Shown here piece after piece: positions 4,085 through 17,731 of a stretch of DNA of 17,731 bases. Numbering within the stretch: position 1 is the stretch's first letter; every line of letters starts with the position of its first letter. The DNA is taken from IMG/VR virus record IMGVR_UViG_3300045988_136749, positions 1 through 17,731 of that record; one strand, 5' to 3'. Source of the stretch: a virus. The notes under the pieces were generated by a model. It did not search any database. It was not told the DNA's origin and saw only the letters and a program-made list of their open reading frames with translations. A program made the position numbers and the translations under genes.

Positions 4085-4085
4085 A

Positions 4086-4370
4086 ATGAAACAGGCAACA
4101 AAAGATGCATTATTAGCATTTGTCGGAGATAGAACAGACGACGAAGCTATCAGCATTTTGGAAACAATCAACGATGATGGTATCGAAGATGGTGAGGACT
4201 GGCATCAGAAATACGTTGATAATGACAAGGAATGGCGAGAAAGATATACAGCGAGATTCAAAGAGGGTGGAGCTCCACAGACAACAGTACCACCAGAACC
4301 AGAACCAGACCCTGAGGATGAAATGAAAAAGTTAACTATTGATACCGTCTTATACGGTGATAATAAATAA
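4086..4370 (+). CDS. Putative head scaffolding protein (gp7-like position)
   Basis: A 94-aa, strongly acidic, helical-looking protein immediately upstream of the major capsid gene, as in phi29. The assignment is by position and composition only. Confidence 0.5.
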   Translation: MKQATKDALLAFVGDRTDDEAISILETINDDGIEDGEDWHQKYVDNDKEWRERYTARFKEGGAPQTTVPPEPEPDPEDEMKKLTIDTVLYGDNK

Positions 4371-4385
4371 AGGAGTGATTTTTAT

Positions 4386-5771
4386 ATGCCAACTAAACCG
4401 AGAATTACGACTAATACAAATATTTCTGCGGATGTTGTAAACGCTATCAAAAATAGTGCATCAAACAATTATCGTGAGAATGTACCTTACGCGACACCAG
4501 ATGCAGATTCGCTTCGGGGTATTGGTGCTATCTTAATGAATAATCCTGCATTAATGAACGAGTTTATCAACACTCTTGTCAACAGGATTGCCTTTGCAAG
4601 AATTGCCAGCAGAATGTACACCAATCCGCTTAGAACGCTGAAAAAAGGTGTCATTGACACCGGTGAAACCATTGAAGATATTTTTGTAAATATTGCGAAT
4701 GTATATCAGTATGAAGAAGTAAGAGGCTCCGACAATGGTGCAGGTAACACATTTAAGCGTTTTGACAACGATGTGAGAGTTGCTTTCTATGTGATGAATT
4801 CACAGTTGACTTACCCTGTGACAGTTAATCGTGCGATGCTCAAAAATGCTTTCAATTCTTGGGCAGGCATGGATGAACTTGTAACCGGCATTATTCAGTC
4901 AGTTTACAGTGCGGCGGCTTACGATGAATTCAATATCACAAAATACATGATTGGTCAGCACATTCTCAAAGGAAAACTTACTTACTACACATTCACAGGT
5001 GGCCGTTATCTTGAAGCAGCTACACAGCTTAGAAAAGCTTCAAATGATATGTCATTTATGACAGACAAGCTTTCTATTGCAGGTGTTAAGACTTTCACAG
5101 AAAATGACCGAAAAGTTATTCTTATCAATACCAACTATGACGCAAACATTGATACAAATGTTCTTGCAGGTGCTTTCAATCTTCCGTACGCAGATTACTT
5201 AAACAGAAGAATCCTTATTGATTCACTTGGCACACTAGACGTTGAAAGACTTAACAAGATTTTTGCAAATGACCCCACATATGAAGAACCATCCGCTGAT
5301 GACATGGCTTTTCTTGATAACATTGCAGGTGTTATTTTGGATGAAGATTTTGTTCAGATTTATGACAATGTTTTTGAAATGCGTGATATGCCGAACCCTG
5401 TTTCACTTGACCACAACTATTTCTTGCATATGTGGCAGACATACGCAGTATCACCTTTTGCAAATGTCGTATGTTGCATTCCTGCTGAATCTGTACCTGC
5501 ACAGACAACCGATAACACAACAATTACACCATCAGCAGTAGCAGTTACAGGTAAACTCGGCAAAGATGGTACAGCCACAGGCATTCTTACTGCAACAGTT
5601 TCAACAGTAACAGGTGGCACAGAAACAGTTAAATGGACTAAAACAGGTGGTACAGCCACAGGTACTATTGCTTCAAACGGCGTTTGGAAAGCAGAGACAG
5701 CAGGTACTTTGAAAGCAAAAGCAAGTATTGGTACTATTGAATCTGATGAGGTAACTATTACAGTATCTTAA
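4386..5771 (+). CDS. Major capsid protein with C-terminal Ig-like (BIG2-type) domain
   Basis: 461 aa, following the scaffold gene. The C-terminal ~85 aa (ITPSAVAVTGKLGKDGTATG...EVTITVS) have the T/G/V-rich beta pattern of bacterial Ig-like domains, as in phi29 gp8. Confidence 0.8.
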   Translation: MPTKPRITTNTNISADVVNAIKNSASNNYRENVPYATPDADSLRGIGAILMNNPALMNEFINTLVNRIAFARIASRMYTNPLRTLKKGVIDTGETIEDIFVNIANVYQYEEVRGSDNGAGNTFKRFDNDVRVAFYVMNSQLTYPVTVNRAMLKNAFNSWAGMDELVTGIIQSVYSAAAYDEFNITKYMIGQHILKGKLTYYTFTGGRYLEAATQLRKASNDMSFMTDKLSIAGVKTFTENDRKVILINTNYDANIDTNVLAGAFNLPYADYLNRRILIDSLGTLDVERLNKIFANDPTYEEPSADDMAFLDNIAGVILDEDFVQIYDNVFEMRDMPNPVSLDHNYFLHMWQTYAVSPFANVVCCIPAESVPAQTTDNTTITPSAVAVTGKLGKDGTATGILTATVSTVTGGTETVKWTKTGGTATGTIASNGVWKAETAGTLKAKASIGTIESDEVTITVS

Positions 5772-5787
5772 ATAGGAGAGTGACTTA

Positions 5788-7374
5788 ATGAGCTATATTG
5801 CACCAGATACAGACATATATTTGCTTGCTAATGTTGAATGTGATAAAAGTTACGATAATGTTAAATATTTTGCAACTAAAAATGCACAGCATACTTATAT
5901 GTCTAGTAAAATCGTTAAGTCATTTACGAACCAGAGTTACGGGCGTGTCAACAAAGGCACGTTCCGTCTCTTCTGTAAAGCAGATGACGTTTATCAATGC
6001 AATTATTTAATGTTTCAGAATACAGCTTTCGGAAACAAGTGGTTTTACGCTTTTATCAATAGCATAGAGTATGTTTCTAATAACACTTGTGAAGTAAGAT
6101 TTACTATCGACTTATTCCAGACATGGTTTCTGGATTGTACAGTTGGGCAATGCTTTGTAGAGCGTGAACACGTTACTGATGATAGTATAGGCGCACACAC
6201 TCTAAATGAGGATGTGCCTACTGGTGAAATGATTACAGCTATCGAAGAACAGTTGACAGAGTTTTCAAAACAGTACACATACGGTGTAGAAATCTGTATC
6301 AGTGATACACAGTTAAGTGGCATAGCTAATCAGCCAACATGGTTTGACAAGCCTGTTTTGAGCGGTATTTTTCAGGGTTCTAAGATTGGTACAACAGATA
6401 ACAGCGATGACTTATTAACGTTTCTGAATAATGTCATTTCAGCAGGCTATCAGTCAACCATTATACAGATTTTCACAATTCCAAAAATATTTGCCCCATC
6501 TGGAACAGATTCAAGAGTACAGACATCAAGAGAGTTACCTACTTTGCCAACAAAGTTCGGTAATTATACACCTTTAAACAACAGACTGTATTCTTCACCT
6601 TTCGTTGACTATGTTGTTTATGCTCCAACCGGTGACAAGATGATTTTACATCCAGAATTGTTCAGTAATTACGAACACAGAATAGTGACTTTTTCTGGTA
6701 ATCAAAGTGTTACACCACAGATAATGTGTATTCCAACGAATTATAAAATAACAGGTGGTACTAACAAGACTGAGGGTTACACCCTTAATTATGGCATAAA
6801 AGGTTCTTTTATGTATGACGCTTATCAAGCTGAGATTGCATCATATGGAGTAGGCGAACTCGGCGGAACTATTGCTCATTGGTTACCTAGAATATTAGGA
6901 ACAGGCAATAAAGTTGCTGGCTCTGGTTTTGGACTCGGTATGGCACTTGACGCAGGTGGCGGTCTTCCTCTGCTAGGTGCGGGTATTGCAGGAGTTAGCG
7001 CAGTAAGTAGTGCTGTTAGTACAGCATCAGACTACTTCAAAGAAACGCATGATACATCAAAATTAAGTGGTGCTTCTGGTGGTTCTGTTCTTTGGTCACA
7101 ACAGATACTAGACACTTTTGTACAGGTTCGTCAAGTAAGGGAAGAGTATGCACGAATAGCTGATAATTATTTCAGTATGTTTGGATATAAGGTATGCAGA
7201 TTGAAAGTTCCAAACATTGCCACTAGACCATCATGGAATTTTGTAAAGTGTTCTACTGTTGCTATAACAGGAGCAATTCCTGCTGATGCAGAAGAATTAA
7301 TAATGAGTGTTCTCAAAAAAGGTGTAACATTCTGGAAAACAAGCTTCGGAAACTACACAGCAAATAATAAGTAA
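5788..7374 (+). CDS. Tail knob / distal tube protein, phi29 gp9-like
   Basis: The N-terminal block YLMFQNTAFGNKWFYAFI...FTIDLFQTWF closely parallels the phi29 gp9 block YIMFQN..YGNKWFYAF...EIDVLQTW. It contains a long Gly/Ala/Leu-rich hydrophobic loop (aa ~354-414). Confidence 0.85.
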   Translation: MSYIAPDTDIYLLANVECDKSYDNVKYFATKNAQHTYMSSKIVKSFTNQSYGRVNKGTFRLFCKADDVYQCNYLMFQNTAFGNKWFYAFINSIEYVSNNTCEVRFTIDLFQTWFLDCTVGQCFVEREHVTDDSIGAHTLNEDVPTGEMITAIEEQLTEFSKQYTYGVEICISDTQLSGIANQPTWFDKPVLSGIFQGSKIGTTDNSDDLLTFLNNVISAGYQSTIIQIFTIPKIFAPSGTDSRVQTSRELPTLPTKFGNYTPLNNRLYSSPFVDYVVYAPTGDKMILHPELFSNYEHRIVTFSGNQSVTPQIMCIPTNYKITGGTNKTEGYTLNYGIKGSFMYDAYQAEIASYGVGELGGTIAHWLPRILGTGNKVAGSGFGLGMALDAGGGLPLLGAGIAGVSAVSSAVSTASDYFKETHDTSKLSGASGGSVLWSQQILDTFVQVRQVREEYARIADNYFSMFGYKVCRLKVPNIATRPSWNFVKCSTVAITGAIPADAEELIMSVLKKGVTFWKTSFGNYTANNK

Positions 7375-7387
7375 GGTGGTGATTAAA

Positions 7388-8305
7388 ATGGGCAGAAGTA
7401 GAAGTAAGCGGAGATTTTTTCAAAAAGTATATTCTTCTGGCATACAATATAATCATTGGTTGATGAAATTTGCAAGCAATGCTGTAGCCTCTTATCGCGT
7501 AGAGGGTTTACCAGTAGAAATAGATTCAAGATGGTTAGCGCTAAAGCTCTTTGAACTTGGTTCTATTGCTTTCTTTTACGATTCGGATGCAGGTGAGTAT
7601 GCTTGTATGCAGTATTCGTGCCTTGGTACTTATGACTGTTATGGCAATCCCACAAAAATACGTGTATGGAATCCATGGACAGGATATCAGAGAGAACTTA
7701 ACAAAGGTGAGTTTGTTATTATATGGGATAACATGCTTAGGGTTAATATGTACAACGCCTACATTGATTTGTCGTATAGATTATGGAGAATTGACGGCAC
7801 AATAGATACAAACTGTGTAGCACAGAAAACACCTGTTATTGTACAATGTTCGGAAAATGAACGATTAACGTTTAAAAATCTTCTTGCAGGCGTTGACGCT
7901 GACAATCCGTACTTAGCCGTTGGTGATAATCTTTCATTAAAAGACATTAAAGCGTTACAGCTCGGCGCACCACTTGTAGCACCAGAGTTAATGGAAGTAC
8001 AGCAGACACTTTACAACAGAGGAAATGCTCTACTAGGTATCACATCTGTTATAGTTCAGAAAAAAGAAAGAATGGTTAAATCAGAAGTAGACACAGCTAA
8101 TGCTGATGCACTTGCTAATAGACGGTCAAGAACAATGGCCAGAGATTACGCTAGTGTACAGATTAAGGAAATATTTGGTCTGGATGTAACTTGGATTTTT
8201 GATGAAGGCGATGAACCAAACAAGGAACCTGATGAAGGAAACAGAGAAGATTTTATCAGCCGTATAAAAGTAGCTAGTTTAGGCACTTCTGTTATAGAGA
8301 GGTGA
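7388..8305 (+). CDS. Head-tail connector (portal / upper collar), phi29 gp10-like
   Basis: About 305 aa, with a basic N-terminus (MGRSRSKRR). VAQKTPVIVQ and KKERMVKSEV correspond to phi29 gp10 NAQKTPVLIR and KKERMVTDEV. The SD GGTGGTGA precedes ATG 7388 (the tracked ORF begins at GTG 7376). Confidence 0.85.
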   Translation: MGRSRSKRRFFQKVYSSGIQYNHWLMKFASNAVASYRVEGLPVEIDSRWLALKLFELGSIAFFYDSDAGEYACMQYSCLGTYDCYGNPTKIRVWNPWTGYQRELNKGEFVIIWDNMLRVNMYNAYIDLSYRLWRIDGTIDTNCVAQKTPVIVQCSENERLTFKNLLAGVDADNPYLAVGDNLSLKDIKALQLGAPLVAPELMEVQQTLYNRGNALLGITSVIVQKKERMVKSEVDTANADALANRRSRTMARDYASVQIKEIFGLDVTWIFDEGDEPNKEPDEGNREDFISRIKVASLGTSVIER

Positions 8306-8309
8306 TAAC

Positions 8310-9122
8310 ATGAGTAGATACACAACAGAAGTCAGATATATCTGTGAATCTCTTGCAGGACTTGACAAGTCGGTTGGCTATTCAAATGTTAATGAAGTCA
8401 TTGAAAAGTCAAGAAACAGAATCTTTCCACCTTTTGAAATATTTGACGAAAGTTATCGACCTGTGCTTGAGACAAAGATTCTTAAACATTTTTACACTAG
8501 AGAAATCGGGTGTGAAACGTTCGGCCTGTGGCAGTTAAGGCTTGACGCTAAACTATCAGTTATTATGCCGTATTACAACAAGCTTTACAAAGCGATTAAC
8601 ATTGATATTCCTATTATCGATAACGTTGATATGAACGTTGAGCATAATATCGGCAGGAATGCTGATACAAAGGTTACAGACAAGACGGGTGTAACATCAA
8701 GTTCTAATACAACAGCAAACACATCGGATAAAGCAAGCACTACAACTAATACAAATACAACGTCTAACGAAAAGATTAGGCATAGTGATACGCCACAAGG
8801 CGGCTTGGAAGGACTAGAGTCAAACGAATATATGAGTGATGCGTCTATATACGACACGACACAAACAGCAAAAAACACCTCAACTAGCAGTAGTGAAACA
8901 AGTAACAGTAGTAACACAAGTAGCAGTAGCAACAGCAATAGCAACAGTGACACAAATGCAAAGAGTACAGAAGAATATGCAGAGCATAGATGGGGAAAAG
9001 AGGGCACTGTAACTTATATTAGCATGGTTAATGAGTACATCGAAAAGATGAAAAACATTGACGCTATGCTGATTCGTGAACTTGAAGAATTATTTATGCA
9101 AATATGGGATATATGGGAGTGA
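8310..9122 (+). CDS. Putative lower collar / tail tube protein (gp11 position) with S/T/N-rich low-complexity tracts
   Basis: The position directly after the connector gene matches phi29 gene 11. There is no sequence-level match I can assert. It carries two Ser/Thr/Asn-rich tracts at aa ~126-155 and ~185-219. Confidence 0.5.
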   Translation: MSRYTTEVRYICESLAGLDKSVGYSNVNEVIEKSRNRIFPPFEIFDESYRPVLETKILKHFYTREIGCETFGLWQLRLDAKLSVIMPYYNKLYKAINIDIPIIDNVDMNVEHNIGRNADTKVTDKTGVTSSSNTTANTSDKASTTTNTNTTSNEKIRHSDTPQGGLEGLESNEYMSDASIYDTTQTAKNTSTSSSETSNSSNTSSSSNSNSNSDTNAKSTEEYAEHRWGKEGTVTYISMVNEYIEKMKNIDAMLIRELEELFMQIWDIWE

Positions 9123-9128
9123 TTCAAT

Positions 9129-10394
9129 ATGAGTTTTAAACCTAAAAATTTTAGAGAGTGGTGTAATCATACGATACCTGTTTTGCCCCAGGTATACGGA
9201 GATGAATTAAGTTATTATGAGTTGCTCAACAAAGTAGTTGAAAAACTCAATGCTATTGGCATTACAGTCAACGAATTGATTGAATATGTCAATAACTATT
9301 TTGACTCAAAAGACTGGCAACAGATGGTAAACAACAAACTTGATTCGATGGTTGCAGATGGTACGCTTGATAATATTATTAACAAAAAAATTTTTGGTGA
9401 ATTGAACAGCAATGTCAATATGCTTTTAGATAACAGAAAGAATTTTAGAAACTGTAAAATTTTATGCATTGGTGACAGCTTCGGAAGAGGTGTTTACGAT
9501 AATAGCGAACACTTAGAAAGTTCATGGCCTACAAGATTAGGCGAGTATGCAAATGGTAGTATAATCTACAACTATTGCCAGAGCAACGCAGGATTTCTTG
9601 CATTAGATAAAGGGTTTTTAGCTCAGCTTACTAGAGCAAAAAATGATGGTCACACAGATGCACATATTATTCTAATAGAGGGTGGCCAAAATGACGGGTA
9701 TCTTGATACAACTAATTTGTTTAATGCTGTTGTAGAATGTATCAATTATGCTAAACAGAATTTTCCTAACGCTGTTATCTATGTGATTGGTGCAAATACT
9801 GGAACAGCTTCACAAATTACAAGGTCAAAACGTCATGATGTGTGGGAAATTATGCAAAGTGCATCAAATTTAACTGGTGTTACGTTTTGGATGGCTAATA
9901 TGTATGTATGGAATATTAATGATACTTTGAGTAGTGATGGTATTCATCTAAACCAGTTTGGCTATCAAATGTTAGCTTCTGTTATTTATCAATTTTTATG
10001 TGGTGCAGACCCGCAGATTAACGCTGATAGATGGCTTGGTTTTCAAACAGAGTGGGCAGGTGATAAAATTACAATGAAGAACACCTCAAACTTTTTTGAA
10101 ACTGTTAATCTACCAAACAATTTTTATCTTAACGGTGATACTCCTGCAATTGTTAAGGATATAGAACTTTCAAATAATTATGCAAATAGAGAAAGTCCTC
10201 TGGCTATTTCTGTTCCAATGGGTGTGAATGGTGAGGATATTAACGGTTGGATGATTTTAAGATTAAGAAATGGACGACTTGAGCTGTGCCCACTTGCTTA
10301 TAAAGGTTCGGGCGGATATGTAACTTTGAGTGGCTCACATGAATTTTTTATGCCGCAGTTTACAGCAACATTTCCGACATTATTGATTATGTAA
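9129..10394 (+). CDS. Tail appendage / receptor-binding protein with SGNH (GDSL) hydrolase domain
   Basis: N-terminal tail-fibre-like helical region (YGDELSYYELLNKVVEKLN...). SGNH blocks: CIGDSFGRG (GDS Ser ~117), EGGQND (block III), DGIHLN (block V, D-x-x-H). It is the last late gene, in the gp12-equivalent position. Confidence 0.75.
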   Translation: MSFKPKNFREWCNHTIPVLPQVYGDELSYYELLNKVVEKLNAIGITVNELIEYVNNYFDSKDWQQMVNNKLDSMVADGTLDNIINKKIFGELNSNVNMLLDNRKNFRNCKILCIGDSFGRGVYDNSEHLESSWPTRLGEYANGSIIYNYCQSNAGFLALDKGFLAQLTRAKNDGHTDAHIILIEGGQNDGYLDTTNLFNAVVECINYAKQNFPNAVIYVIGANTGTASQITRSKRHDVWEIMQSASNLTGVTFWMANMYVWNINDTLSSDGIHLNQFGYQMLASVIYQFLCGADPQINADRWLGFQTEWAGDKITMKNTSNFFETVNLPNNFYLNGDTPAIVKDIELSNNYANRESPLAISVPMGVNGEDINGWMILRLRNGRLELCPLAYKGSGGYVTLSGSHEFFMPQFTATFPTLLIM

Positions 10395-10412
10395 ATGTTT
10401 CACGTGAAACAT
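10395..10412. repeat. Perfect 18-bp palindrome ATGTTTCACGTGAAACAT
   Basis: It starts at the base after the tail-appendage stop codon. It is fully self-complementary and centred on CACGTG. Confidence 0.8.
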
Positions 10413-10415
10413 AAC

Positions 10416-10444
10416 AAAGGGAGCCTTTTGGACTCCCTTTTTTC
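10416..10444. terminator. Bidirectional rho-independent terminator between the convergent late and early operons
   Basis: AAAGGGAGCC-TTTT-GGaCTCCCTTT hairpin. It is followed by TTTTTTC on the plus strand and by TTTGTTATGTTT on the minus strand. It lies exactly where + and - transcription converge. Confidence 0.75.
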
Positions 10445-12122: not shown

Positions 12123-12402
12123 ATAATTCACCCCTTAATACGTTAATATATTTTTCTACAAAAGCTTTATAAAATAAATCTGCATCATAATATGTATATG
12201 AATTCATCAATATTTTTAAAGCATTTTCCAACTTGTTCATTCTTATTACACGCTTAATTGCAAGCAACGCCTGCTTTGCATCATATACTCTAATGTATTC
12301 GTTGTAATCTTCATCTAGCATAGTGTAAATATCTTTTCTTATTTGACTGTCTGATTTACCGCATTTGATACGTTGATTCAACAAGTAAAACACCTCCATC
12401 AA
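12109..12402 (-). CDS. Hypothetical early protein (~91-97 aa)
   Basis: Operon-oriented ORF overlapping the 3' end of the polymerase gene. The best SD, GGAGGTG (12397-12391), favours the TTG start at 12384. No motif recognised. Confidence 0.5.
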   Translation of the reverse strand: MMEVFYLLNQRIKCGKSDSQIRKDIYTMLDEDYNEYIRVYDAKQALLAIKRVIRMNKLENALKILMNSYTYYDADLFYKAFVEKYINVLRGELYEKN

Positions 12403-14326
12403 TTCTTTTTGGTATTAATTTACATGGTACATTTAAGCCGATTTTAAAATCATCAAATGTTCTGATGATAGGCCTGTGCGTAACTTGGTTGAAAAGAAAT
12501 CTGTTAACTGGTGTATTTTCTTTGTATTCTTCATACACAGCTTTTCCAGACATTGACAATTCAAACAAGTCTTTGCATCGCTGTGGCATTCCTGCACACT
12601 TAATGTTGTTGTAGGGTTCTTCTATCTTCTGCAAATCTTCATGCGTAACGTGCTCAATGTATGTTTTCTGCCTTGCGAAAATAGCCCTATCCCAACAGGA
12701 TTCAAGTTTCCATGCACAGAAATCAGTTTCATGTACTTTAATTCCTGTAATATGTTCTGGTGGTAAGTCACAGTGAATACTGTCTGTATCTGCATAGATG
12801 AAACCATGTTCTTCAACACCATAATAGTTTGCTTGAGCAGCTCTAATTGTAAAGTTTCTGGCGTAACTAGTAATAGCTGAACCAACAGGGATATAACCTG
12901 CTTCTTTGTCTTTAGCTGTAATGTTGATAAATCCTATTGAATTATCATCCTTAACGTACGCTAGTTTAAATGAAGAATCAGTAGATGAAGCCATTTTGCC
13001 GTACAAGTTATTTAAAAACAACTTAGCAAGTGTACGTCTAGCACCTTTGCTAGTCATTTTTATTTTTGCGTATTTATCGATGTATTCATCGAATATACCA
13101 ATTTCTGAATAAAAGTAACACCCGTCAAGAATCTCAAAGTCAACAAGCTCATAATGTTCAAGAATAAGAAAGTAATCTGTCATAGTCAATGTTAGTTCTA
13201 CTCTTGTATCACAGGTATTTCCATCAATGTCTATGTACTTGTCATAATACTTGCCTGTAGCTTTGTCAAACACATCAGACGTTTTTAAAGACTCTGTGCC
13301 CTTGTATAACATATTTCCTTTTATCTGAATGAATGGCAACTTACCACTTTTCAAATAGAATTTTGTCCTTATTCTGATAAAGAAATACACATTGTTTTGC
13401 AATGCTCTGTCTGGAATATAGTTACCAGACCAGAACATCGGTTTTCCGACAGGATATCTATTGCCGGACATTGAGTGCATCATAGATGGGTACAAAGAAT
13501 TTACATCCGCTGTAGTTCCATTTGTGTATATCTTGTTTTCTTTTCCTTTAACAAGATAACACCATCCTCCTCTATATGATTTTCTAACATAAGCATCAAC
13601 ATTCGACTTTCCATATATCTCAGAATCCAGTTCTATTTGCGTGACGTCTGGAAATCTCCTTTTCCAATCATCTTCTCCGACTATTTGTTTATATTCAGCA
13701 AGACAACAACTGCCTATTGTGAGTCGGTTATGACCTTCTTGAAAAACAATTTCAAGCGCTTCTTTGACAACAAGAACATCATTAGCTATATATTTTTTTT
13801 CTTCTGGTTTAATTTCACACCCTGCATAACGAAAACCTGTATATTCCATGTCAAGCTTCTGATGCTTAGTTTTAAAGGCTTTTCCTATTTCTTTCACAGA
13901 GAACGGAAGTAGCTTCAATGAATCCCGAAATTCTATTACCTTATTATTAATCTTGACTTTGATACTATACCATTGCCCCATTTCAGAAATAGTATACTTG
14001 AACGTATTGTTATACATTTCTTTGTCATGTTTCCATTCACAAGAATTAACACCATCGCCAGTATATGCTTGTTTTAGATGTAATTTATTCAGAAAAAACG
14101 ATATCCAAAAATTGCCGTCAAATTTTAGGTTATGAAAATAAACTATCAGATTAGATTTTAAATCACTTAAATATTCCCATGTTTCATCTATTGAATGCAA
14201 TATAGAAACATCTTCCGTGAACATTTCTACAATGGCAGATGCCCAAACCTCCGTATTTTTCTGGCCTTCATAGACTGTCGTTTCAAAGTCCCCAACCAGA
14301 TACTTTACTTTTTTAGGCCTTGCCAT
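12356..14326 (-). CDS. Protein-primed family B DNA polymerase (phi29 p2-like)
   Basis: Exo I DFETT, Exo II FHNLKFDGNF, Exo III YIANDVLVV, motif A DVNSLYPSMM, motif B KLFLNNLYGKMAS, motif C YADTDSIH and the KxY-type RQKTYIE all closely parallel phi29 DNAP. The SD GGTGGTGA precedes ATG 14326 (MARPKK...), 4 nt after the terminal-protein stop. The tracked ORF extends to 14353. Confidence 0.95.
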   Translation of the reverse strand: MARPKKVKYLVGDFETTVYEGQKNTEVWASAIVEMFTEDVSILHSIDETWEYLSDLKSNLIVYFHNLKFDGNFWISFFLNKLHLKQAYTGDGVNSCEWKHDKEMYNNTFKYTISEMGQWYSIKVKINNKVIEFRDSLKLLPFSVKEIGKAFKTKHQKLDMEYTGFRYAGCEIKPEEKKYIANDVLVVKEALEIVFQEGHNRLTIGSCCLAEYKQIVGEDDWKRRFPDVTQIELDSEIYGKSNVDAYVRKSYRGGWCYLVKGKENKIYTNGTTADVNSLYPSMMHSMSGNRYPVGKPMFWSGNYIPDRALQNNVYFFIRIRTKFYLKSGKLPFIQIKGNMLYKGTESLKTSDVFDKATGKYYDKYIDIDGNTCDTRVELTLTMTDYFLILEHYELVDFEILDGCYFYSEIGIFDEYIDKYAKIKMTSKGARRTLAKLFLNNLYGKMASSTDSSFKLAYVKDDNSIGFINITAKDKEAGYIPVGSAITSYARNFTIRAAQANYYGVEEHGFIYADTDSIHCDLPPEHITGIKVHETDFCAWKLESCWDRAIFARQKTYIEHVTHEDLQKIEEPYNNIKCAGMPQRCKDLFELSMSGKAVYEEYKENTPVNRFLFNQVTHRPIIRTFDDFKIGLNVPCKLIPKRIDGGVLLVESTYQMR

Positions 14327-14330
14327 ACTA

Positions 14331-15038
14331 TCACCACCCGTTTTCTGATTCATTCATCATTTCAGCCTGCACCTTTTCTTCAAATGATAACGGCGCACCG
14401 TTGATTATTGAAAGTAGTTCGTCTGTTGCTTGGTTTATGACTGCAACTGATGAACCCCACAGAACAGCCGAAACAATAACGTCTATGTCATTCATAGTTC
14501 TGGACGCTTCAACTAACCTTCTTCCGACCTCTGTCATACCAATGTCATTAATCATATTCAGCAGGAAAGACTGCATACTTTTTGAATATGATAATGCTTC
14601 TTTTCTCCTGCTTCTGTTCAAATCAACAGATTTGCCTAATGAAGATGTGAAGTCTGTAGCCACTTTTTGATATTCTGCTTCTCTTCTTTTACGTTCCTGC
14701 TCAATTTCTTCGTCTGTAGCATCCTTATAGCCATAGAACAAATCTTCCTCTTCTGGCGTTAATGAGCCATATCTTGAAAGAAATTCGTCGTTGAAGTTAC
14801 TAAACGCTATATCCTCTTCGTGTGGAAGATTTGCTTCAGCTTTAAGAGTTTCAACGTCTATCTTTTTAAGCTTATTTACGTAAGCTCTTAATTCCTTACC
14901 TCTGAAACCTTTTGCTTTAATCTGGCGCAAAGTCGGTATGTTTGTTGGAACATATTGTACACCTTGCTTTTTAAGCTTGCGCTCTAAGCGCTTTATACGA
15001 TTTCGCTCACGTTCGTAAGCAGTTAGTTTTCTTGCCAT
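14331..15038 (-). CDS. Terminal protein (phi29 p3-like), by position and composition
   Basis: It lies immediately upstream of the protein-primed polymerase and is translationally close-coupled to it. It is 235 aa with a highly basic N-terminus (MARKLTAYERERNRIKRLERKLKKQ), reminiscent of the phi29 TP N-terminal DNA-binding region. The genome also has ITRs. Confidence 0.7.
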   Translation of the reverse strand: MARKLTAYERERNRIKRLERKLKKQGVQYVPTNIPTLRQIKAKGFRGKELRAYVNKLKKIDVETLKAEANLPHEEDIAFSNFNDEFLSRYGSLTPEEEDLFYGYKDATDEEIEQERKRREAEYQKVATDFTSSLGKSVDLNRSRRKEALSYSKSMQSFLLNMINDIGMTEVGRRLVEASRTMNDIDVIVSAVLWGSSVAVINQATDELLSIINGAPLSFEEKVQAEMMNESENGW

Positions 15039-15375: not shown

Positions 15376-15726
15376 TTATAAGCTGTCAACGTCAAGTACG
15401 CAATCAACGTACTTGCGTCCGGCCTTTGACTGACCAGAGATTTTCTTAACAGGGAATGGGAATCCCTGCATGACAGTTTCAATGTCTTTGATACTTCTCT
15501 TGAATGTTCTAGACTGAGTACTGTATACCATGTTATCAGTCGTGATGATGGACATAAGTTCGGACGTTGTGCCGTCCTCTTTTACGTCGACAAACTCAAG
15601 ATATCCTGCAACATTGAGAACGTCGCCGTCATCGAGTGTCTTGACAGTTTTAATTGTCGGAGCTTTTGTCAAAAGGTATTCTTCTACTTTTGTAAAGTTA
15701 CGTGTTTCGTTTTTAATTGTAATCAT
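15376..15726 (-). CDS. Single-stranded DNA-binding protein, phi29 p5-like
   Basis: The pattern LDDGDVLNVAGY...EDGTTSELMSIITTDNMVYSTQSRTF...FPVKKISGQSKAGRKYVDCVLDV parallels phi29 p5 LPDGTIIEANAI...EETVTTIFAADGSLYSAISKTV...FKVKVVQGTSSKGNVFFSLQL. The size and the position between p6-like and TP match. The SD AAAGGAA is best spaced for ATG 15726; ATG 15732 and 15771 are alternatives. Confidence 0.65.
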   Translation of the reverse strand: MITIKNETRNFTKVEEYLLTKAPTIKTVKTLDDGDVLNVAGYLEFVDVKEDGTTSELMSIITTDNMVYSTQSRTFKRSIKDIETVMQGFPFPVKKISGQSKAGRKYVDCVLDVDSL

Positions 15727-15798
15727 AGTCATTATTCCTTTCTTTTTTTGTGTGTTGTATCGCGTGAACATAAAACAAATTTCGATTAACTAGTTACA

Positions 15799-16080
15799 TT
15801 ATTCTGACTGAGCTTTAGCTCTAGCTGGAAGAATCTCAGCTAATTCTAAAAACTTTTCTTCTGTCATTCCGTACAACTCTTCCTGTACCGCTACTTCTGT
15901 TACTTTCAGAGGGCGTACCTCTGCATGTTCTTTTGTGATTGCTTTCAGTGCATCGTCTGCTGAAAGTTCGCCTGACAGCTTATATTCAACTGTCTTAATT
16001 TCATCACTTGCGATGTCATATACTGTCGCTTTCGCTTTTGTACTCGTGATGGTACGAGTAACCATTCTCTTTCTTGCCAT
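15799..16080 (-). CDS. Histone-like dsDNA-binding protein, phi29 p6-like
   Basis: 93 aa. MARKRMVTRTITSTKAKATVYD... and ...ELYGMTEEKFLELAEI parallel phi29 p6 ...REITKTTVNVAKMV... and ...EVYELPVEKFLEVATV. It is the first gene after a consensus promoter, has the SD AAGGAGG, and precedes the SSB as in phi29. Confidence 0.65.
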   Translation of the reverse strand: MARKRMVTRTITSTKAKATVYDIASDEIKTVEYKLSGELSADDALKAITKEHAEVRPLKVTEVAVQEELYGMTEEKFLELAEILPARAKAQSE

Positions 16081-16135
16081 TGTTTAGGCCTCCTTGTTTG
16101 TTTGCTTTTTTATTCGTTTAACGTCCGCCGACGAA

Positions 16136-16188
16136 TTGACAGGACGGGAGTCGAACCCGTCGGAAGTGTTCCGCAAACCTGTCTGTCA
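16136..16188 (-). ncRNA. tRNA-like minihelix 1 (acceptor-like stem, small hairpin and T-arm); not a complete tRNA
   Basis: Minus strand: TGACAGA-CAGGTTTG-[CGGAA-CAC-TTCCG]-[ACGGG-TTCGACT-CCCGT]-CCTGTCA-A. The T-arm has a 5-bp stem and the 7-nt loop TTCGACT (GGTTCGACTCC matches the tRNA T-loop consensus). The 6/7-bp acceptor-like stem closes directly on the T-stem and is followed by an unpaired A. It has no D-arm, no canonical anticodon arm and no encoded CCA. Confidence 0.55.
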
Positions 16189-16218
16189 ACCTTTCTATAT
16201 GTAAGAAAGGAGGAGAGA

Positions 16219-16243
16219 GTAAAGAGTTGTCGGTTCTCTTTAC
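16219..16243 (-). promoter_or_regulatory. 5'-terminal stem-loop of the p6-operon transcript
   Basis: Minus strand: GTAAAGAG-aaccgacaa-CTCTTTAC, a perfect 8-bp stem. It begins at the predicted transcription start, about 7 nt after the -10 box. Confidence 0.5.
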
Positions 16244-16250
16244 ATTATTA

Positions 16251-16279
16251 ATTATATCACTGTTGTACTGAAATGTCAA
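16251..16279 (-). promoter_or_regulatory. Early promoter, perfect consensus with extended -10
   Basis: Minus strand: TTGACA (16279-16274), an exact 17-nt spacer, TATAAT (16256-16251), preceded by TG (gTGaTATAAT). An A-rich UP-like tract (AAAATAAATAAAAAATTCTTGAAAAAA) lies upstream. Confidence 0.75.
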
Positions 16280-16364
16280 CAGTTTTTTCAAGAATTTTTT
16301 ATTTATTTTGCACTATGGTTAGATATGACTAACTTCGCACATATTACGCTATCGAACGAATGTT

Positions 16365-16574
16365 CTAATAAGTCTCATGCTCAAAACCAACGTCGCAGTC
16401 TGTAAAAGCATCGATAAATTGCCACTGCTTAGAAAATATTCTAATGTAAGGGAGTCCACCAATTTGACGAGCATCGTCTTGTAAATATATATTTAATTCA
16501 TCACACCCTACTATTTTAAGTGGGTGCGAAAATTTAATACACATTTCTCCACACTTTGCACCTTTAACATACAC
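16365..16574 (-). CDS. Hypothetical early protein (59-69 aa)
   Basis: Operon-oriented ORF. The GTG start at 16574 overlaps the upstream stop; ATG at codon 11 is an alternative start. No motif recognised. Confidence 0.5.
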   Translation of the reverse strand: MYVKGAKCGEMCIKFSHPLKIVGCDELNIYLQDDARQIGGLPYIRIFSKQWQFIDAFTDCDVGFEHETY

Positions 16575-16675
16575 TATTCATCATCATCCTTTCCGTATAG
16601 CAACTGGCCTATTAACTCAGCTACTATCAAAATTATTATTGCAAGGCCTGCTATTGACAGACCTGCAAAAATCAC
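16574..16675 (-). CDS. Small single-TM peptide with acidic tail (33 aa), not in the ORF track
   Basis: The GTG start overlaps the upstream stop (GTGA) and AAAGG lies 7 nt upstream. The sequence is MIFAGLSIAGLAIIILIVAELIGQLLYGKDDDE. Its stop TAG overlaps the next gene's GTG. It fills the 97-nt gap between the tracked ORFs. Confidence 0.45.
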   Translation of the reverse strand: MIFAGLSIAGLAIIILIVAELIGQLLYGKDDDE

Positions 16676-16899
16676 TTTCTAACCTTTCTGTAGGCTTTAA
16701 ACCAAATGTTTTCGACCATGTAATTCTTAAAATCAGCGAATGTCCCATTCCCACATTTGAATTCGTTCTTTATTCTTTCTTCATCATATTCTGAATAAAA
16801 GCCGTCCTCGTTAGCTTTTCTTATAGCTGTTTGAAAAGTACAGCCATATAAATTCATGCAGTTAAACAATATCTTTCTTGAATACTCCCGATATACCAC
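16672..16899 (-). CDS. Hypothetical early protein (75 aa)
   Basis: The GTG start lies 6 nt after the SD GAGGAGGAA. No motif recognised. Confidence 0.55.
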   Translation of the reverse strand: MVYREYSRKILFNCMNLYGCTFQTAIRKANEDGFYSEYDEERIKNEFKCGNGTFADFKNYMVENIWFKAYRKVRK

Positions 16900-16902
16900 A
16901 AA

Positions 16903-17085
16903 TTATTCCTCCTCATCATCTATATAGTCTGAACAGCATTTTTCACGTTCCTCGTAAAACTTTACAAGCTTTTTATATCGCAAGTCAAAGTTTGAACCTC
17001 GTGATGGATAACCCTCACGTTCACATTCGTACACAAGTTCTTTAACATCATCGACAAAAGTACTCCATAATTCATCTAGTGTCAT
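16903..17085 (-). CDS. Small acidic early protein (60 aa)
   Basis: The best start is ATG 17085 (MTLDELW...), 7 nt after the SD GGAGGGAGG; the tracked ORF extends to 17124. It has 18 Asp/Glu against 9 Lys/Arg and ends in DDEEE. Confidence 0.6.
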   Translation of the reverse strand: MTLDELWSTFVDDVKELVYECEREGYPSRGSNFDLRYKKLVKFYEEREKCCSDYIDDEEE

Positions 17086-17206
17086 AATTAAACCTCCCTC
17101 CATGTAAACGTTCAGTTTCATCAATTTCGATTGATTGGCTGAACCAAACTGATTTTGCTATTTTCCAAGCATATTTTCCTGTTTTTGTATTTCCTTTTTT
17201 TGTCAT
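17072..17206 (-). CDS. Small basic protein (44 aa), not in the ORF track
   Basis: ATG 17206 lies 8 nt after the SD AGGAGG (17220-17215). The sequence is MTKKGNTKTGKYAWKIAKSVWFSQSIEIDETERLHGGRFNYDTR. It overlaps the next gene's start by 14 nt. Confidence 0.45.
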   Translation of the reverse strand: MTKKGNTKTGKYAWKIAKSVWFSQSIEIDETERLHGGRFNYDTR

Positions 17207-17248
17207 AGTTCTTACCTCCTACTTCTTACATGGTCACTATTGACCGAG

Positions 17249-17288
17249 TGCCACCCGCAGGAGTCGAACCTGCGGTACACCTTGTGGC
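17249..17288 (-). ncRNA. tRNA-like minihelix 2 (acceptor-like stem plus T-arm only)
   Basis: Minus strand: GCCAC-AAGGTGTAC-[CGCAGG-TTCGACT-CCTGCG]-G-GTGGC-A. The 6-bp T-stem carries the same loop TTCGACT and the same 11-mer GGTTCGACTCC as element 1. The 5-bp closing stem is followed by an unpaired A. It starts at the last base of the stop codon of the first early gene. Confidence 0.55.
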
Positions 17289-17515
17289 TAGTTCTGTCTT
17301 TCTTTTTTGCGTCTCATTTTCCACATTCTGTCAGCAAAATCAATCGCGGACATTATTTGATCATGAATGCGAAAGCCCTCAACAATATCAAATTGATATA
17401 TGCCATTTTTGAAACCCTGCATTCGGGACATATAAATTTTTGCTTGTTCATAATCTTCATTCATAGAAGCGATTACATAATTAACACGTTCTTTTTCAAA
17501 ATATGTTTTTTTCAT
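17288..17515 (-). CDS. Hypothetical first early protein (75 aa)
   Basis: The SD AAAGGAGGAAAC precedes the ATG, and it is the first ORF downstream of the right-end promoter. No motif recognised. Confidence 0.6.
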   Translation of the reverse strand: MKKTYFEKERVNYVIASMNEDYEQAKIYMSRMQGFKNGIYQFDIVEGFRIHDQIMSAIDFADRMWKMRRKKERQN

Positions 17516-17550
17516 TTTTTGTTTCCTCCTTTATCTCTCTTTCTGTTTAT

Positions 17551-17579
17551 ATTATATCACATAGTACACAAAATGCAAG
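17551..17579 (-). promoter_or_regulatory. Right-end early promoter with extended -10
   Basis: Minus strand: TTGCAT (17578-17573), 16-nt spacer (or CTTGCA with 17), TATAAT (17556-17551), preceded by gTGa. It shares GTGATATAAT with the promoter at 16251-16279. Confidence 0.65.
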
Positions 17580-17700
17580 ACGTAATTTTGCATAAAAATA
17601 GTACGTGGTTTGCACAAATACTTGTAAAAAATGTCACATAATAATTCTTGTAATTTTGCTCAAAAAACATACCTAACTAGCGCTATCATTTTGGGGAAAA

Positions 17701-17731
17701 TGACAGTCAAAGTTGAAATGAAATACCACTC
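17701..17731. repeat. Right inverted terminal repeat (ITR)
   Basis: Reverse complement of nt 1-31 at 30/31 positions. The mismatch is at 17709 (A, pairing with T, versus C at left position 23). Confidence 0.9.

What the first reader, a model, noticed from the sequence alone, without database searches (positions are those of the whole stretch)
17249..17288. Second tRNA-like minihelix in the first early intergenic spacer
GCCAC-AAGGTGTAC-CGCAGG-TTCGACT-CCTGCG-G-GTGGC-A is a 6-bp T-stem with the same TTCGACT loop and the same 11-mer GGTTCGACTCC as element 1. A 5-bp stem closes it, and an unpaired A follows. Only 9 nt separate the 5' acceptor strand from the T-arm, so it is a pure minihelix. Its first base is the last base of the stop codon of the first early gene (17288-17515), and it sits 43 nt upstream of the next SD-preceded ORF. 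That is the position where an intercistronic processing signal would lie. The stem sequences differ from element 1 while the structure and loop are preserved. This fits selection on structure rather than a recent duplication or a decaying tRNA gene.
Basis: partly seen in the sequence, partly recalled or inferred. Interest (0 to 1): 0.75.

Follow-up and report, generated by a model that had tools for sequence, protein, structure and literature searches.

The report
tRNA-like minihelix between phage early genes
A 41-base RNA hairpin that copies the top half of a tRNA sits between two early genes of a small phi29-like gut phage. It belongs to an undescribed family of such mimics that probably recruits the host's tRNA-cutting enzymes, although this copy is dispensable in many close relatives.

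Summary
Window 17288-17249 (- strand) folds into a 5-bp acceptor-like stem plus a 7-bp T-stem. Together they make a continuous 12-bp stack, the length of a tRNA acceptor/T arm. It has a canonical T-loop (TTCGACT), an 8-nt bulge (AAGGTGTA) and an unpaired A.

Homologues at the same early intergenic junction occur in 21 of 28 near relatives. In the 11 intact copies the T-stem is 100% paired and 4 of the 6 pairs counted show compensatory changes. G·U pairs place the structure on the mRNA strand.

The element belongs to a clade-specific family of tRNA "top-half" mimics: 54 hits on the early-sense strand against 1 antisense. None are found in phi29, GA-1 or six other outgroups. None are called as tRNAs or reach Rfam thresholds.

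Element 2 is not essential. It is point-mutated, partly deleted or cleanly excised in 10 relatives, and absent in 7 more.

The best reading is a phage counterpart of plant-mitochondrial "t-elements". In this reading it is a generic tRNA-shape signal cut by host RNase P at its 5' end and RNase Z at its 3' end. Cleavage would separate early cistrons, release a small tRNA-like RNA, and leave the downstream mRNA with a 5'-proximal hairpin. Cleavage itself is inferred, not shown.

The parts
17249..17288 (-). Element 2: tRNA-like minihelix (top-half mimic), including the unpaired discriminator-like A17249
   Evidence: Sequence; MFE fold; RNAalifold consensus; covariation; CM R1 hit at 89.3 bits
17284..17288 (-). 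5' acceptor-like strand GCCAC. G17288 is also the third base of the TAG stop of ORF75.
   Evidence: Pairs with 17254-17250. Of the 5 pairs, 2 are invariant and one shows a compensatory A-U to G-C change. The TAG overlap is used as the upstream stop in 15 of 21 homologues.
17276..17283 (-). 8-nt bulge/linker AAGGTGTA, replacing the D-arm, anticodon arm and variable region. Its core GGTGTA is nearly invariant.
   Evidence: Alignments A1 and A2. A GG(Y) motif 1-5 nt after the 5' acceptor strand recurs in most family members. The idea that it mimics D-loop G18-G19 is inference only.
17269..17275 (-). T-stem 5' strand CCGCAGG
   Evidence: Pairs with 17261-17255. Four pairs show compensatory changes across relatives.
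17262..17268 (-). T-loop TTCGACT (consensus TTCRANY, closed by a G-C pair as in tRNA G53-C61)
17255..17261 (-). T-stem 3' strand CCTGCGG
17250..17254 (-). 3' acceptor-like strand GTGGC
17232..17245 (-). Downstream hairpin GGTCA-ATAG-TGACC, starting 3 nt after the discriminator. It is kept in all 21 homologues, including those that lost the T-arm.
   Evidence: (91% paired, with U-G wobbles on the sense strand)
17204..17220 (-). SD site AGGAGG (17220-17215) and ATG (17206-17204) of the downstream ORF. That ORF is a 44-aa remnant of a 106-aa gene family.
17288..17515 (-). Upstream first early gene (75 aa, no known family). Its TAG stop overlaps the element.
17551..17579 (-). Putative early promoter P1 (TTGCAT ... 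TGTGATATAAT) that would transcribe ORF75, element 2 and the genes downstream
   Evidence: Read from the sequence. It has the same extended -10 as P2. No terminator-like site lies on the - strand between it and element 2.
16135..16189 (-). Element 1: paralogous tRNA-like element (7-bp acceptor, mini-hairpin linker, T-arm ACGGG-TTCGACT-CCCGT). It lies in the 5' UTR of the p6-like/SSB/TP/PolB operon.
   Evidence: It is found with an intact T-arm (acceptor at least 6 of 7 pairs) in 26 of the 27 close relatives; the 27th locus, L020, is cut off just upstream of p6. ORF93 matches a p6-like dsDNA-binding family and ORF131 matches phi29 SSB.
16251..16279 (-). Promoter P2: TTGACA, 17-nt spacer, TG-n-TATAAT (12 of 12 consensus positions), upstream of element 1

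Best explanation
Element 2 is a tRNA "top-half" mimic embedded in the polycistronic early mRNA. It keeps the parts of a tRNA that shape-reading enzymes use: a 12-bp acceptor/T coaxial stack, a canonical T-loop and an unpaired discriminator. It lacks everything that gives a tRNA its amino-acid or codon identity.

The most likely mechanism is that the host's tRNA-maturation enzymes treat it as a pre-tRNA. RNase P would cut before G17288 and RNase Z would cut after A17249, with CCA addition possibly following.

That would have three consequences:
1. It separates the first early cistron from the accessory genes downstream.
2. It releases a roughly 41-44-nt tRNA-like RNA.
3. It leaves a downstream mRNA whose 5' end lies 3 nt before a conserved hairpin. 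That arrangement protects 5'-monophosphate RNAs from 5' exonuclease in Firmicutes.

An RNase P cut would also remove the G of the upstream UAG and leave ORF75 mRNA without a stop codon.

What is shown: the structure, its covariation, its strandedness, its conserved intercistronic placement and its family membership. What is inferred: the cleavages and their consequences. The element is accessory. It tunes expression rather than being essential.
For: Structure and selection:
- The fold is a 12-bp stack plus a 7-nt T-loop.
- In 11 intact homologues the T-stem is 100% paired, with compensatory changes in 4 of the 6 pairs counted. No shuffle (0 of 500) reaches the covariation score, and slid controls are only 36-51% paired.
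- G·U pairs form only on the mRNA strand.

Only generic tRNA-shape features are conserved across the family:
- The T-loop TTCRANY with its G-C closing pair and the roughly 12-bp stack are kept.
- Acceptor sequences differ between clades (GCCAC, TGACAGG, TCCCGGA, AGGGTAC, TGGTAGG, GGACGGT and others), and the discriminator is A, T or C.
- This points to shape-reading enzymes (RNase P, RNase Z, CCA-adding enzyme) rather than to any one aminoacyl-tRNA synthetase.

Placement:
- Hits are 54 on the early-sense strand against 1 antisense, with about 2.65 expected on both strands together.
- The elements are always intercistronic or in a 5' UTR. In element-2 loci the upstream ORF's stop lies 0-9 nt before the element. 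In most members the next SD-ATG lies 41-56 nt after the discriminator; the CS229P1-clade copies and a few others lie farther, up to 116 nt.
- A hairpin starts 1-6 nt after the discriminator in 43 of 49 distinct tails, against 47% of control windows. Mean MFE is -5.0 against -2.8 kcal/mol.
- There is no own promoter and no terminator, so the element is co-transcribed.

Precedent:
- Bacterial RNase P tolerates extensive truncation of tRNA, and it processes mRNAs and phage regulatory RNAs (PMC4919922).
- Plant-mitochondrial t-elements were found with the same GGTTCRANYCC motif. They direct RNase P and RNase Z cuts at mRNA ends, acquire CCA-like tails, and leave some mRNAs ending inside the ORF (PMC1920247).
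Against: - No transcript-end, cleavage or CCA data exist for this phage or any relative. The only record found for the window is a DNA metagenome scaffold.
- The element is dispensable. Among 28 near relatives, 3 carry T-loop C56 mutations or a G53·A61 mismatch. Five have broken T-stems, one has a 12-nt and one a 26-nt deletion, and 7 lack the element. Any processing role is therefore non-essential.
- In the decayed copies the acceptor hairpin and hairpin 2 persist, so part of the function may not need tRNA mimicry.
- A ribosome terminating at the overlapping UAG would transiently unfold the acceptor stem.
- The CS229P1-clade copies lack the 5'-proximal hairpin.
- The hairpin criterion is loose, since 47% of control windows also pass it.
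Confidence: 0.45

Rival explanations
1. The released minihelix is itself the functional product: a trans-acting tRNA mimic. Once excised and CCA-tailed, it would act as an abundant decoy or sponge for a host factor that reads the tRNA acceptor/T-arm. One example would be abortive-infection toxins that modify or cleave tRNA 3' ends. Processing would then be only the means of making it.
For: - It lies in the very-early accessory region among small, fast-shuffling genes of unknown function, the usual place for counter-defence functions.
- Its patchy presence, absence and decay among near-identical phages is typical of host-specific accessory functions.
- Some genomes carry 2-3 copies, for example L060 with three.
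- Element 1 sits directly behind a consensus promoter, so it would be made in large amounts.
- The conserved GGTGTA bulge suggests a tertiary or protein contact beyond a bare helix.
Against: - No target is known and no defence or anti-defence family matched.
- The invariable placement between a stop codon and an SD site, on the mRNA strand, is what a cis role predicts. A trans-acting RNA could sit anywhere.
- The acceptor and discriminator are not conserved across clades, which excludes any identity-specific partner.
Confidence: 0.17
2. The element is a generic intercistronic structure that is tRNA-derived but no longer read as a tRNA. It would act as a stable hairpin pair. It could block exonucleases, insulate the two cistrons, or shape translation termination and re-initiation at the stop-SD junction. 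tRNA enzymes would play no part.
For: - The GCCAC/GTGGC hairpin and hairpin 2 survive in all 21 homologues, even where the T-arm is mutated or deleted. L006 is reduced to GCCAC-ACG-GTGGC.
- A syntenic element in L035, L038, L039 and L064 has a non-canonical loop, TGCAATT.
- The distance to the SD-ATG is tightly conserved.
Against: - A generic hairpin does not need the exact T-loop consensus with its G-C closing pair or a 12-bp stack. Yet these are the features retained across clades whose stems share no sequence.
- Eight outgroup phi29-like phages manage without any such element.
Confidence: 0.2
3. The element is a neutral remnant or a recombination linker. It would be a decaying piece of a former phage tRNA(-like) gene. 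Its nucleotide conservation would exist only because it serves as a homology patch where early gene modules are exchanged.
For: - Flanking ORF families are shuffled, with at least 3 families upstream and at least 5 downstream, around an element that is 87% identical.
- Relatives carry many decayed or deleted copies.
- The gene downstream in the window is itself a frameshifted, internally deleted remnant.
- The L006 deletion falls between two GGTG microhomologies.
Against: - Neutral decay does not produce paired compensatory substitutions confined to the stem while the loop, bulge and acceptor stay constant.
- A DNA homology patch has no reason to keep G·U-compatible changes on one strand.
- The family-wide strand bias of 54 to 1 argues for an RNA function.
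Confidence: 0.1
4. The element is a host tRNA gene fragment (att-type 3' remnant) or a real, unusual tRNA gene.
For: The T-arm and the acceptor 3' strand GGGTGGCA look like those of tRNA-Thr or tRNA-Phe in some bacteria.
Against: - ARAGORN finds no tRNA in the window or in 85 related loci.
- There is no anticodon arm and no D-arm.
- Genome hits to the 3' half are in unrelated phyla, and no clostridial or Lachnospiraceae genome appears among the 80 listed hits.
- The phage is a terminal-protein-primed linear genome with inverted terminal repeats (ITRs), and no integrase was seen among the ORFs examined.
- A 5' acceptor strand is present, unlike in att fragments.
Confidence: 0.02

Closest known systems
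Plant-mitochondrial t-elements (tRNA-like structures at mRNA termini; Forner et al. 2007, PMC1920247)
   Same: - Recognised by the same GGTTCRANYCC T-arm motif closed by an acceptor-like stem.
- Non-canonical or absent other arms.
- Embedded in polycistronic mRNAs at cistron boundaries.
- Some overlap the end of the upstream ORF, so that cleavage leaves an mRNA without a stop codon.
- Proposed, and partly shown, to be cut by RNase P and RNase Z and tailed with C/A.
   Different: - Those are organellar elements, derived from resident tRNA genes and mostly about 70 nt long with cloverleaf remnants.
- This one is in a bacteriophage, is only 41 nt long, has no anticodon or D arm, belongs to a covarying multi-copy family, and has no experimental end mapping.
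mascRNA/MALAT1 and MEN-beta tRNA-like 3' modules
   Same: A tRNA-like structure inside a longer transcript is cut by RNase P at its 5' end and RNase Z at its 3' end, then CCA-tailed. This yields a small tRNA-like RNA and defines the end of the upstream RNA (PMC4919922).
   Different: Those are eukaryotic nuclear lncRNAs. They retain a cloverleaf with a small anticodon stem, and the upstream RNA is protected by a triple helix. No coding cistrons are involved.
Synthetic acceptor/T-arm minihelix substrates of RNase P, RNase Z and CCA-adding enzyme
   Same: The architecture is the same: a 12-bp coaxial stack, a T-loop and a discriminator. Bacterial RNase P tolerates extensive tRNA truncation (PMC4919922). 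That minihelices are also accepted by RNase Z and CCA-adding enzyme is from my own knowledge.
   Different: Those are laboratory constructs without a bulge. This one is natural and has a conserved 8-nt bulge at the 5/7 junction instead of a continuous 7/5 helix.
Phage RNAs matured by RNase P (P1/P7 C4 antisense RNA, P4 CI RNA, phi80 M3 RNA)
   Same: These are phage transcripts that borrow host RNase P through tRNA-like features. "Phage-induced regulatory RNAs" are listed as RNase P substrates in PMC4919922; the individual examples are from my own knowledge.
   Different: Those are immunity or antisense regulators of temperate coliphages. They have no canonical T-loop, and they are not intercistronic punctuation in a lytic protein-primed phage.
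RNase III sites between T7 early genes (functional analogue); MHV68 TMERs (tRNA-like element followed directly by hairpins and cut by tRNase Z)
   Same: Host endonuclease sites punctuate a viral polycistronic early transcript (T7). The TMERs share the architecture of a tRNA-like element followed immediately by a hairpin. Both comparisons are from my own knowledge.
   Different: T7 uses a different enzyme and different structure. The TMERs are eukaryotic pol III transcripts that produce miRNAs.
tmRNA tRNA-like domain and plant-virus 3' TLS
   Same: Both are partial tRNA mimics that keep an acceptor/T-arm, with a stem-less D-loop analogue carrying GG. Rfam's only tRNA-clan signal in the window is a 17-nt tmRNA T-arm match at element 1 (14.4 bits against a gathering score of 47).
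   Different: The element has no G3·U70, no tag ORF, no pseudoknots and no genome-terminal position. Aminoacylation identity elements are not conserved.

Membership tests
Canonical tRNA gene | Cloverleaf with an anticodon arm and D-arm, detectable by tRNA finders | tested here: not met
   ARAGORN finds 0 genes in the window and 0 in L001-L085. Only 8-9 nt lie between the acceptor and T-stem.
Canonical tRNA gene | T-arm with the T-loop consensus TTCRANY closed by G53-C61, and an acceptor/T coaxial stack of 12 bp | tested here: met
   GG-TTCGACT-CC; 5 + 7 = 12 continuous pairs
t-element-type tRNA-like processing signal | GGTTCRANYCC T-arm plus an acceptor-like closing stem, with non-canonical remaining arms | tested here: met
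   motif definition from PMC1920247
t-element-type tRNA-like processing signal | Embedded in a longer mRNA at a cistron boundary, on the sense strand | tested here: met
   The stop codon overlaps base 1. The SD-ATG follows 42 nt after the discriminator. No promoter or terminator lies in between. Strand bias is 54 to 1.
t-element-type tRNA-like processing signal | RNA termini coincide with the element's ends; cleavage by RNase P and RNase Z; non-templated C/A addition | not testable with these tools
   No transcriptome or biochemical data are available. The only record found for the window is a DNA metagenome scaffold.
Structured RNA under selection (general) | Compensatory base-pair changes in homologues above controls | tested here: met
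   96% of cells are paired. Six pairs have double changes, and 0 of 500 shuffles reach the covariation score. Slid registers are 36-51% paired. RNAalifold gives 17 pairs, 6 of them with compensatory changes.
Structured RNA under selection (general) | Retention of the element in close relatives | tested here: inconclusive
   Of 28 near relatives, 11 copies are intact, 3 are slightly impaired, 7 are broken or partly deleted, and 7 are absent.
Any Rfam 15 family | Score at or above the family's gathering threshold | tested here: not met
   There are no gathering-level hits. The only hit at the locus is a chance-level Plastid-ycf2 match on the opposite strand (20.4 bits against 65.7).
Intrinsic (Rho-independent) terminator | GC-rich hairpin followed by a U-run | tested here: not met
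   No terminator-like site on the - strand in 15700-17731. The element is followed by CUCGGUCA, not by Us.
att-type 3' tRNA gene fragment / host tRNA remnant | Near-identity to the 3' half of a host tRNA, lack of a 5' acceptor strand, and association with an integrase | tested here: not met
   Genome hits are in unrelated phyla, and none of the 80 listed is clostridial. A 5' strand is present. The genome is linear with 39-nt ITRs and encodes a terminal protein and PolB. True att-type fragments are seen in Propionigenium for contrast.
tmRNA tRNA-like domain | G3·U70 alanine identity, tag-peptide ORF, pseudoknots | tested here: not met
   The acceptor is G-C, C-G, C-G, A-U, C-G. ARAGORN finds no tmRNA. 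The Rfam tmRNA match is a 17-nt fragment at element 1 only.

The most novel reading that the evidence does not exclude
A clade of gut Clostridia/Lachnospiraceae phi29-like phages has evolved its own "tRNA punctuation" system. In this reading, a family of anticodon-less tRNA top-half mimics co-opts host RNase P, RNase Z and CCA-adding enzyme to cut early polycistronic mRNAs. Some of those cuts would remove stop codons. The excised, CCA-tailed minihelices would accumulate as decoys that absorb host anti-phage toxins aimed at tRNA acceptor ends. That would explain why copies are gained, lost and decay in a host-specific way.
Probability: 0.12. Interest if true: 0.85.

Novelty: new variant of a known kind. 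Interest (0 to 1): 0.6.

Why it matters
If the inferred cleavages occur, this would be the first bacteriophage counterpart I could find of mitochondrial tRNA/t-element punctuation. A lytic phage would be using the host's tRNA-maturation enzymes, rather than RNase III as in T7, to cut and tune its early mRNAs.

It would add a new, covariation-supported RNA family to gut-phage "dark matter". The family has dozens of members and matches no Rfam family. It would also provide a natural minimal RNase P/RNase Z substrate of 41 nt with a conserved bulge.

The system is experimentally tractable. Clostridium phage CS229P1 on C. symbiosum carries a family member. Natural deletion variants such as L006 and L027 already provide the controls.

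Even on the conservative reading, the work shows that automated tRNA and Rfam annotation misses a recurrent structured element in these genomes.

Tried and rejected
- ARAGORN on the window and 85 related loci found no tRNA or tmRNA.
- Rfam at E <= 10 gave only chance-level hits.
- Megablast of the whole window against GenBank phages found no match. Relatives were found only at the protein level.
- Host-tRNA-remnant idea: the genome-wide pattern scan hit tRNA-Thr, -Phe and -His genes in unrelated phyla, plus att-type fragments in Propionigenium. No clostridial source appears among the 80 listed hits.
- Terminator or own-promoter idea: none was found.
- Stop-codon readthrough or coding extension: there is an in-frame TAG 16 codons downstream. 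I rejected this because variation is paired and stem-confined rather than codon-patterned.
- pRNA analogy: no Rfam pRNA hit. The loop-to-linker complementarity I looked for in the element-1 leader did not covary consistently (sequences). Dropped.
- Weak T-arm-like hits inside or antisense to late genes, for example L009:8068, lie within a 717-aa ORF on the other strand and were treated as chance.
- Eight outgroup phi29-like genomes (phi29, GA-1, CI644P5, CI461P3, MT835826, Athos, CPS1, Pize) have no such element.
- Six literature searches found no description of tRNA-like elements in phi29-like phages.
- Looking for RNA-derived contigs that might reveal transcript ends found only the DNA metagenome scaffold.
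- The PHROGs and Pfam scans named only two of the 10 early ORFs tested, the p6-like DNA-binding protein and an SSB. Nothing RNA-related or defence-related turned up.
Full report
**1. What the window is**

The 17,731-bp window is a complete linear genome with 39-nt inverted terminal repeats at 1-39 and 17693-17731. It is identical in extent to an ENA human-gut metagenome scaffold.

It encodes a protein-primed family-B DNA polymerase (12356-14353, - strand) and a putative terminal protein, assigned by its position next to PolB as in phi29 (14331-15038, -; no family match). It also encodes a phi29-type SSB (15376-15771, -) and a p6-like dsDNA-binding protein (15799-16080, -). Late genes lie on the + strand (426-10394). 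Early genes run on the - strand from about 17515 down to 10445.

The nearest GenBank relatives, by PolB identity, are the fecal contig MT835814 (66%) and the Clostridium symbiosum phages CS229P1-3 (63%). phi29 itself is at 35%.

**2. The observation**

On the - strand, 17288-17249 reads GCCAC-AAGGTGTAC-CGCAGG-TTCGACT-CCTGCG-G-GTGGC-A, exactly as reported.
- G17288 is the third base of the TAG stop of the first early ORF (17515-17288).
- The next ORF has AGGAGG at 17220-17215 and ATG at 17206.
- The 11-mer GGTTCGACTCC occurs twice in the window (17270-17260 and 16157-16147, both - strand), against 0.04 expected by chance.
- The 41-mer folds at -20.2 kcal/mol. That structure holds 97% of the ensemble, with z = -2.95.
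- Both the single-sequence fold and RNAalifold add the pair C17275-G17255. The helix is then 5 + 7 = 12 continuous base pairs, the length of a tRNA acceptor/T-arm stack. It carries an 8-nt bulge (AAGGTGTA) and a canonical 7-nt T-loop closed by G-C.
- A second hairpin, GGTCA-ATAG-TGACC (17245-17232), starts 3 nt after the unpaired A.
- ARAGORN calls no tRNA, and Rfam has nothing at gathering level.

**3. Comparative evidence for element 2**

A PolB-guided fetch returned 80 IMG/VR loci.
- A motif scan and a covariance model built on 11 intact copies found element-2 homologues in 21 of the 28 genomes closest to the window (the window plus 27 loci at 93-97% PolB identity). All lie on the early-sense strand at the same kind of junction.
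- In the 11 intact copies, 96% of cells are paired. The 6 T-stem pairs counted are 100% paired, and four of them show compensatory changes (C-G/U-A; A-U/C-G/U-A; A-U/G-C; G-C/U-A). No shuffle (0 of 500) reaches the covariation score, and slid registers give 36-51% pairing.
- G·U pairs in the T-stem (L012, L021) and U·G pairs in hairpin 2 (L018, L030) work only on the mRNA strand. The structure is therefore RNA, not a DNA palindrome.
- The loop, the bulge core GGTGTA and the acceptor are nearly invariant, while the stem varies in pairs.
- The genes around the element are shuffled, with at least three unrelated upstream ORF families and at least five downstream families. In 15 of 21 cases the upstream ORF uses the TAG that overlaps the element.

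**4. The element is dispensable**

The covariance model also recovered impaired copies:
- L024 has a G53·A61 mismatch.
- L010 and L014 have T-loop C56 changed to U or A.
- L016, L026 and L028 have a 2-nt deletion in the 5' T-stem strand.
- L011 and L015 have broken stems.
- L029 has lost the bulge and the 5' T-stem strand.
- L006 has lost the whole T-arm, leaving GCCAC-ACG-GTGGC. The deletion falls between two GGTG microhomologies.

Seven further close relatives lack the element. Five of these loci (L007, L009, L022, L027, L058) begin inside the terminal repeat, so the element there is truly absent rather than cut off. L025 begins at the early promoter, still upstream of where the element would lie. 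L020 is cut off just upstream of p6, so its status is unknown.
- L027 shows a clean excision that leaves only TCAATAAG...TGTAAGAA before the same 106-aa downstream gene.
- L007, L022, L025 and L058 lack the whole accessory block.
- L009 has no intergenic spacer at that position.

The acceptor hairpin and hairpin 2 persist in all 21 homologues.

Selection on structure is therefore real where the element is intact, but the element is accessory and is repeatedly lost. In the window itself, the ORF downstream of the element is a frameshifted, internally deleted remnant of the 106-aa family.

**5. A wider family**

The same architecture recurs across more distant clades, with unrelated stem sequences. 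Each member has an acceptor stem, a linker of variable length, a T-arm with TTCRANY and a discriminator.
- Element 1 has the acceptor TGACAGG/CCTGTCA and lies in the 5' UTR of the p6-SSB-TP-PolB operon, behind a perfect promoter at 16279-16251. It is found with an intact T-arm (acceptor at least 6 of 7 pairs) in 26 of the 27 close relatives; the 27th locus, L020, is cut off just upstream of p6.
- MT835814 has two copies.
- The CS229P1 clade has the acceptor TCCCGGA/TCCGGGA. L037, L040 and L041 carry longer versions with a D-arm-like GCC-AAAAGGTAA-GGC.
- L060 has three copies.
- L067 and L071 have two copies each.

With one fixed scanner there are 54 hits on the early-sense strand and 1 on the antisense strand, against about 2.65 expected on both strands in shuffles. 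Eight outgroup phi29-like genomes have none: phi29, GA-1, two C. innocuum phages, a fecal contig, Enterococcus Athos, C. perfringens CPS1 and Curtobacterium Pize.

Only the generic shape is conserved across clades. Acceptor sequences and the discriminator (A, T or C) are not. In most members the next SD-ATG lies 41-56 nt after the discriminator; the CS229P1-clade copies and a few others lie farther, up to 116 nt. In 43 of 49 distinct cases a hairpin starts 1-6 nt after the discriminator, against 47% in control windows. In L035, L038, L039 and L064 the syntenic element has a variant loop, TGCAATT.

**6. Origin**

A scan of 185,579 species genomes for the T-arm plus 3' acceptor pattern returned 111 hits. 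The 80 listed are in unrelated phyla, and none is clostridial. Those I examined are tRNA-Thr, -Phe or -His genes, or att-type 3' fragments. The element is not a captured host tRNA remnant. The longer CS229P1-clade forms suggest the family descends from a full tRNA-like gene that lost its anticodon arm. That is inference.

**7. Mechanism**

The element keeps exactly what shape-reading tRNA enzymes need and nothing that specifies an amino acid or codon. On that basis the most economical explanation is that host RNase P and RNase Z process it like a pre-tRNA.
- Bacterial RNase P tolerates extensive truncation of tRNA, and it already processes mRNAs and phage regulatory RNAs (PMC4919922).
- Plant-mitochondrial t-elements were discovered with the same GGTTCRANYCC motif. 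They direct RNase P and RNase Z cuts at mRNA ends, receive CCA-like tails, and sometimes leave mRNAs that end inside the ORF (PMC1920247).

Predicted products here are:
- ORF75 mRNA ending ...UA, with its stop codon lost;
- a 41-nt minihelix, or 44 nt after CCA addition;
- a downstream mRNA beginning CUC followed by a hairpin. From general knowledge of Firmicute RNA decay, that arrangement protects 5'-monophosphate RNA from RNase J1.

A(-1) cannot pair with A73, so the acceptor end is well defined.

All cleavage steps are inferred. I put this reading at about 0.45.

The rivals are:
- a trans-acting decoy function for the excised RNA (about 0.17, and compatible with processing);
- a generic stabilising or insulating hairpin that no longer needs tRNA enzymes (about 0.2), supported by the persistence of the two hairpins in decayed copies;
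- a neutral remnant or recombination linker (about 0.1), contradicted by the stem-confined compensatory changes;
- a host tRNA fragment or real tRNA (about 0.02).

**8. Novelty**

Six full-text searches found no description of tRNA-like elements in phi29-like phages, and Rfam 15 has no matching family. The kind of element is known: tRNA-like processing modules such as t-elements and mascRNA. The setting is new in three respects. It is a lytic, protein-primed bacteriophage. The form is an extreme 41-nt, bulged 5/7 minihelix. And it is a multi-copy, clade-specific family.

I rate it a new variant of a known kind, with interest 0.6. The structure and family are solid and testable. The function is unproven, and this particular copy is dispensable.

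Noticed in passing
window 1-39 and 17693-17731: A 39-nt inverted terminal repeat (90% complementary). The window is therefore a complete linear genome of a protein-primed phage. It matches ENA scaffold ERZ28569031 scaffold_4291 (17,732 nt).
   Followed up: partly
window 16135-16245 (-): The leader of the p6-like/SSB/TP/PolB operon contains two hairpins, then tRNA-like element 1, then a nested hairpin (TTCG-CGTC-GGCG-GACG-...-CGAA). The 168-nt leader folds with z = -3.3. The whole arrangement is conserved in the close relatives where that region is present, with covariation in the downstream hairpin (CGTC/GACG against CGCC/GGCG).
   Followed up: partly
window 17072-17206 (-): The 44-aa ORF after element 2 is a degraded copy of a 106-aa early gene family (MTRKEIQKQENMLVEKAWK...HTWREV). 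Its N-terminus is frameshifted, an internal segment is deleted, and the family's C-terminal TWREV survives in another frame.
   Followed up: yes
L060 117-1340 (+); also L067:1843, L071:~1700, L001:1029: A repeated intercistronic unit consisting of a tRNA-like element, TTCCAC, a covarying hairpin (CACCTG-n-CAGGTG), the motif GAGATTATAAC, an SD site and an ATG. L060 has three copies. The TTCCA could be an encoded CCA end that overlaps the hairpin. The GATTATAAC motif is unexplained, and a -10-like box is not excluded.
   Followed up: no
L037:~1640-1760, L040:1955-2040, L041:1468-1550 (+): The CS229P1-clade versions of the p6-leader element are longer. They contain a D-arm-like GCC-AAAAGGTAA-GGC, and L037 has an anticodon-arm-like hairpin with a non-canonical loop. 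This suggests the family arose from a full tRNA-like gene by progressive loss of the anticodon arm.
   Followed up: no
L035, L038, L039, L064, upstream of the p6-like gene: The syntenic minihelix has loop TGCAATT instead of TTCRANY (GGTAGG-TGCAATT-CCTAC, closed by a GCGTCGTCAT/ATGACGCG stem). It is a family member that has left the canonical T-loop consensus.
   Followed up: no
window 10383-10441: The hairpin AAAAGGGAGUC-CAAAAG-GCUCCCUUU lies at the junction of the convergent early and late operons. It is probably a bidirectional terminator. Rfam gave only a chance-level SSRC38 hit there.
   Followed up: no
window 17551-17579 and 16251-16279 (-): The two early promoters share the extended -10 GTGATATAAT. 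P2 is a 12-of-12 consensus match. P1 has a weaker -35 (TTGCAT) and was not picked up by the consensus scan.
   Followed up: partly
L111, L127, L148 (Propionigenium maris contigs): Three copies of the 3' half of tRNA-Thr(GGU), starting in the anticodon loop, lie near one intact gene (L120). This is the classic signature of elements integrated into a tRNA gene. It is unrelated to the phage but useful as a contrast.
   Followed up: partly
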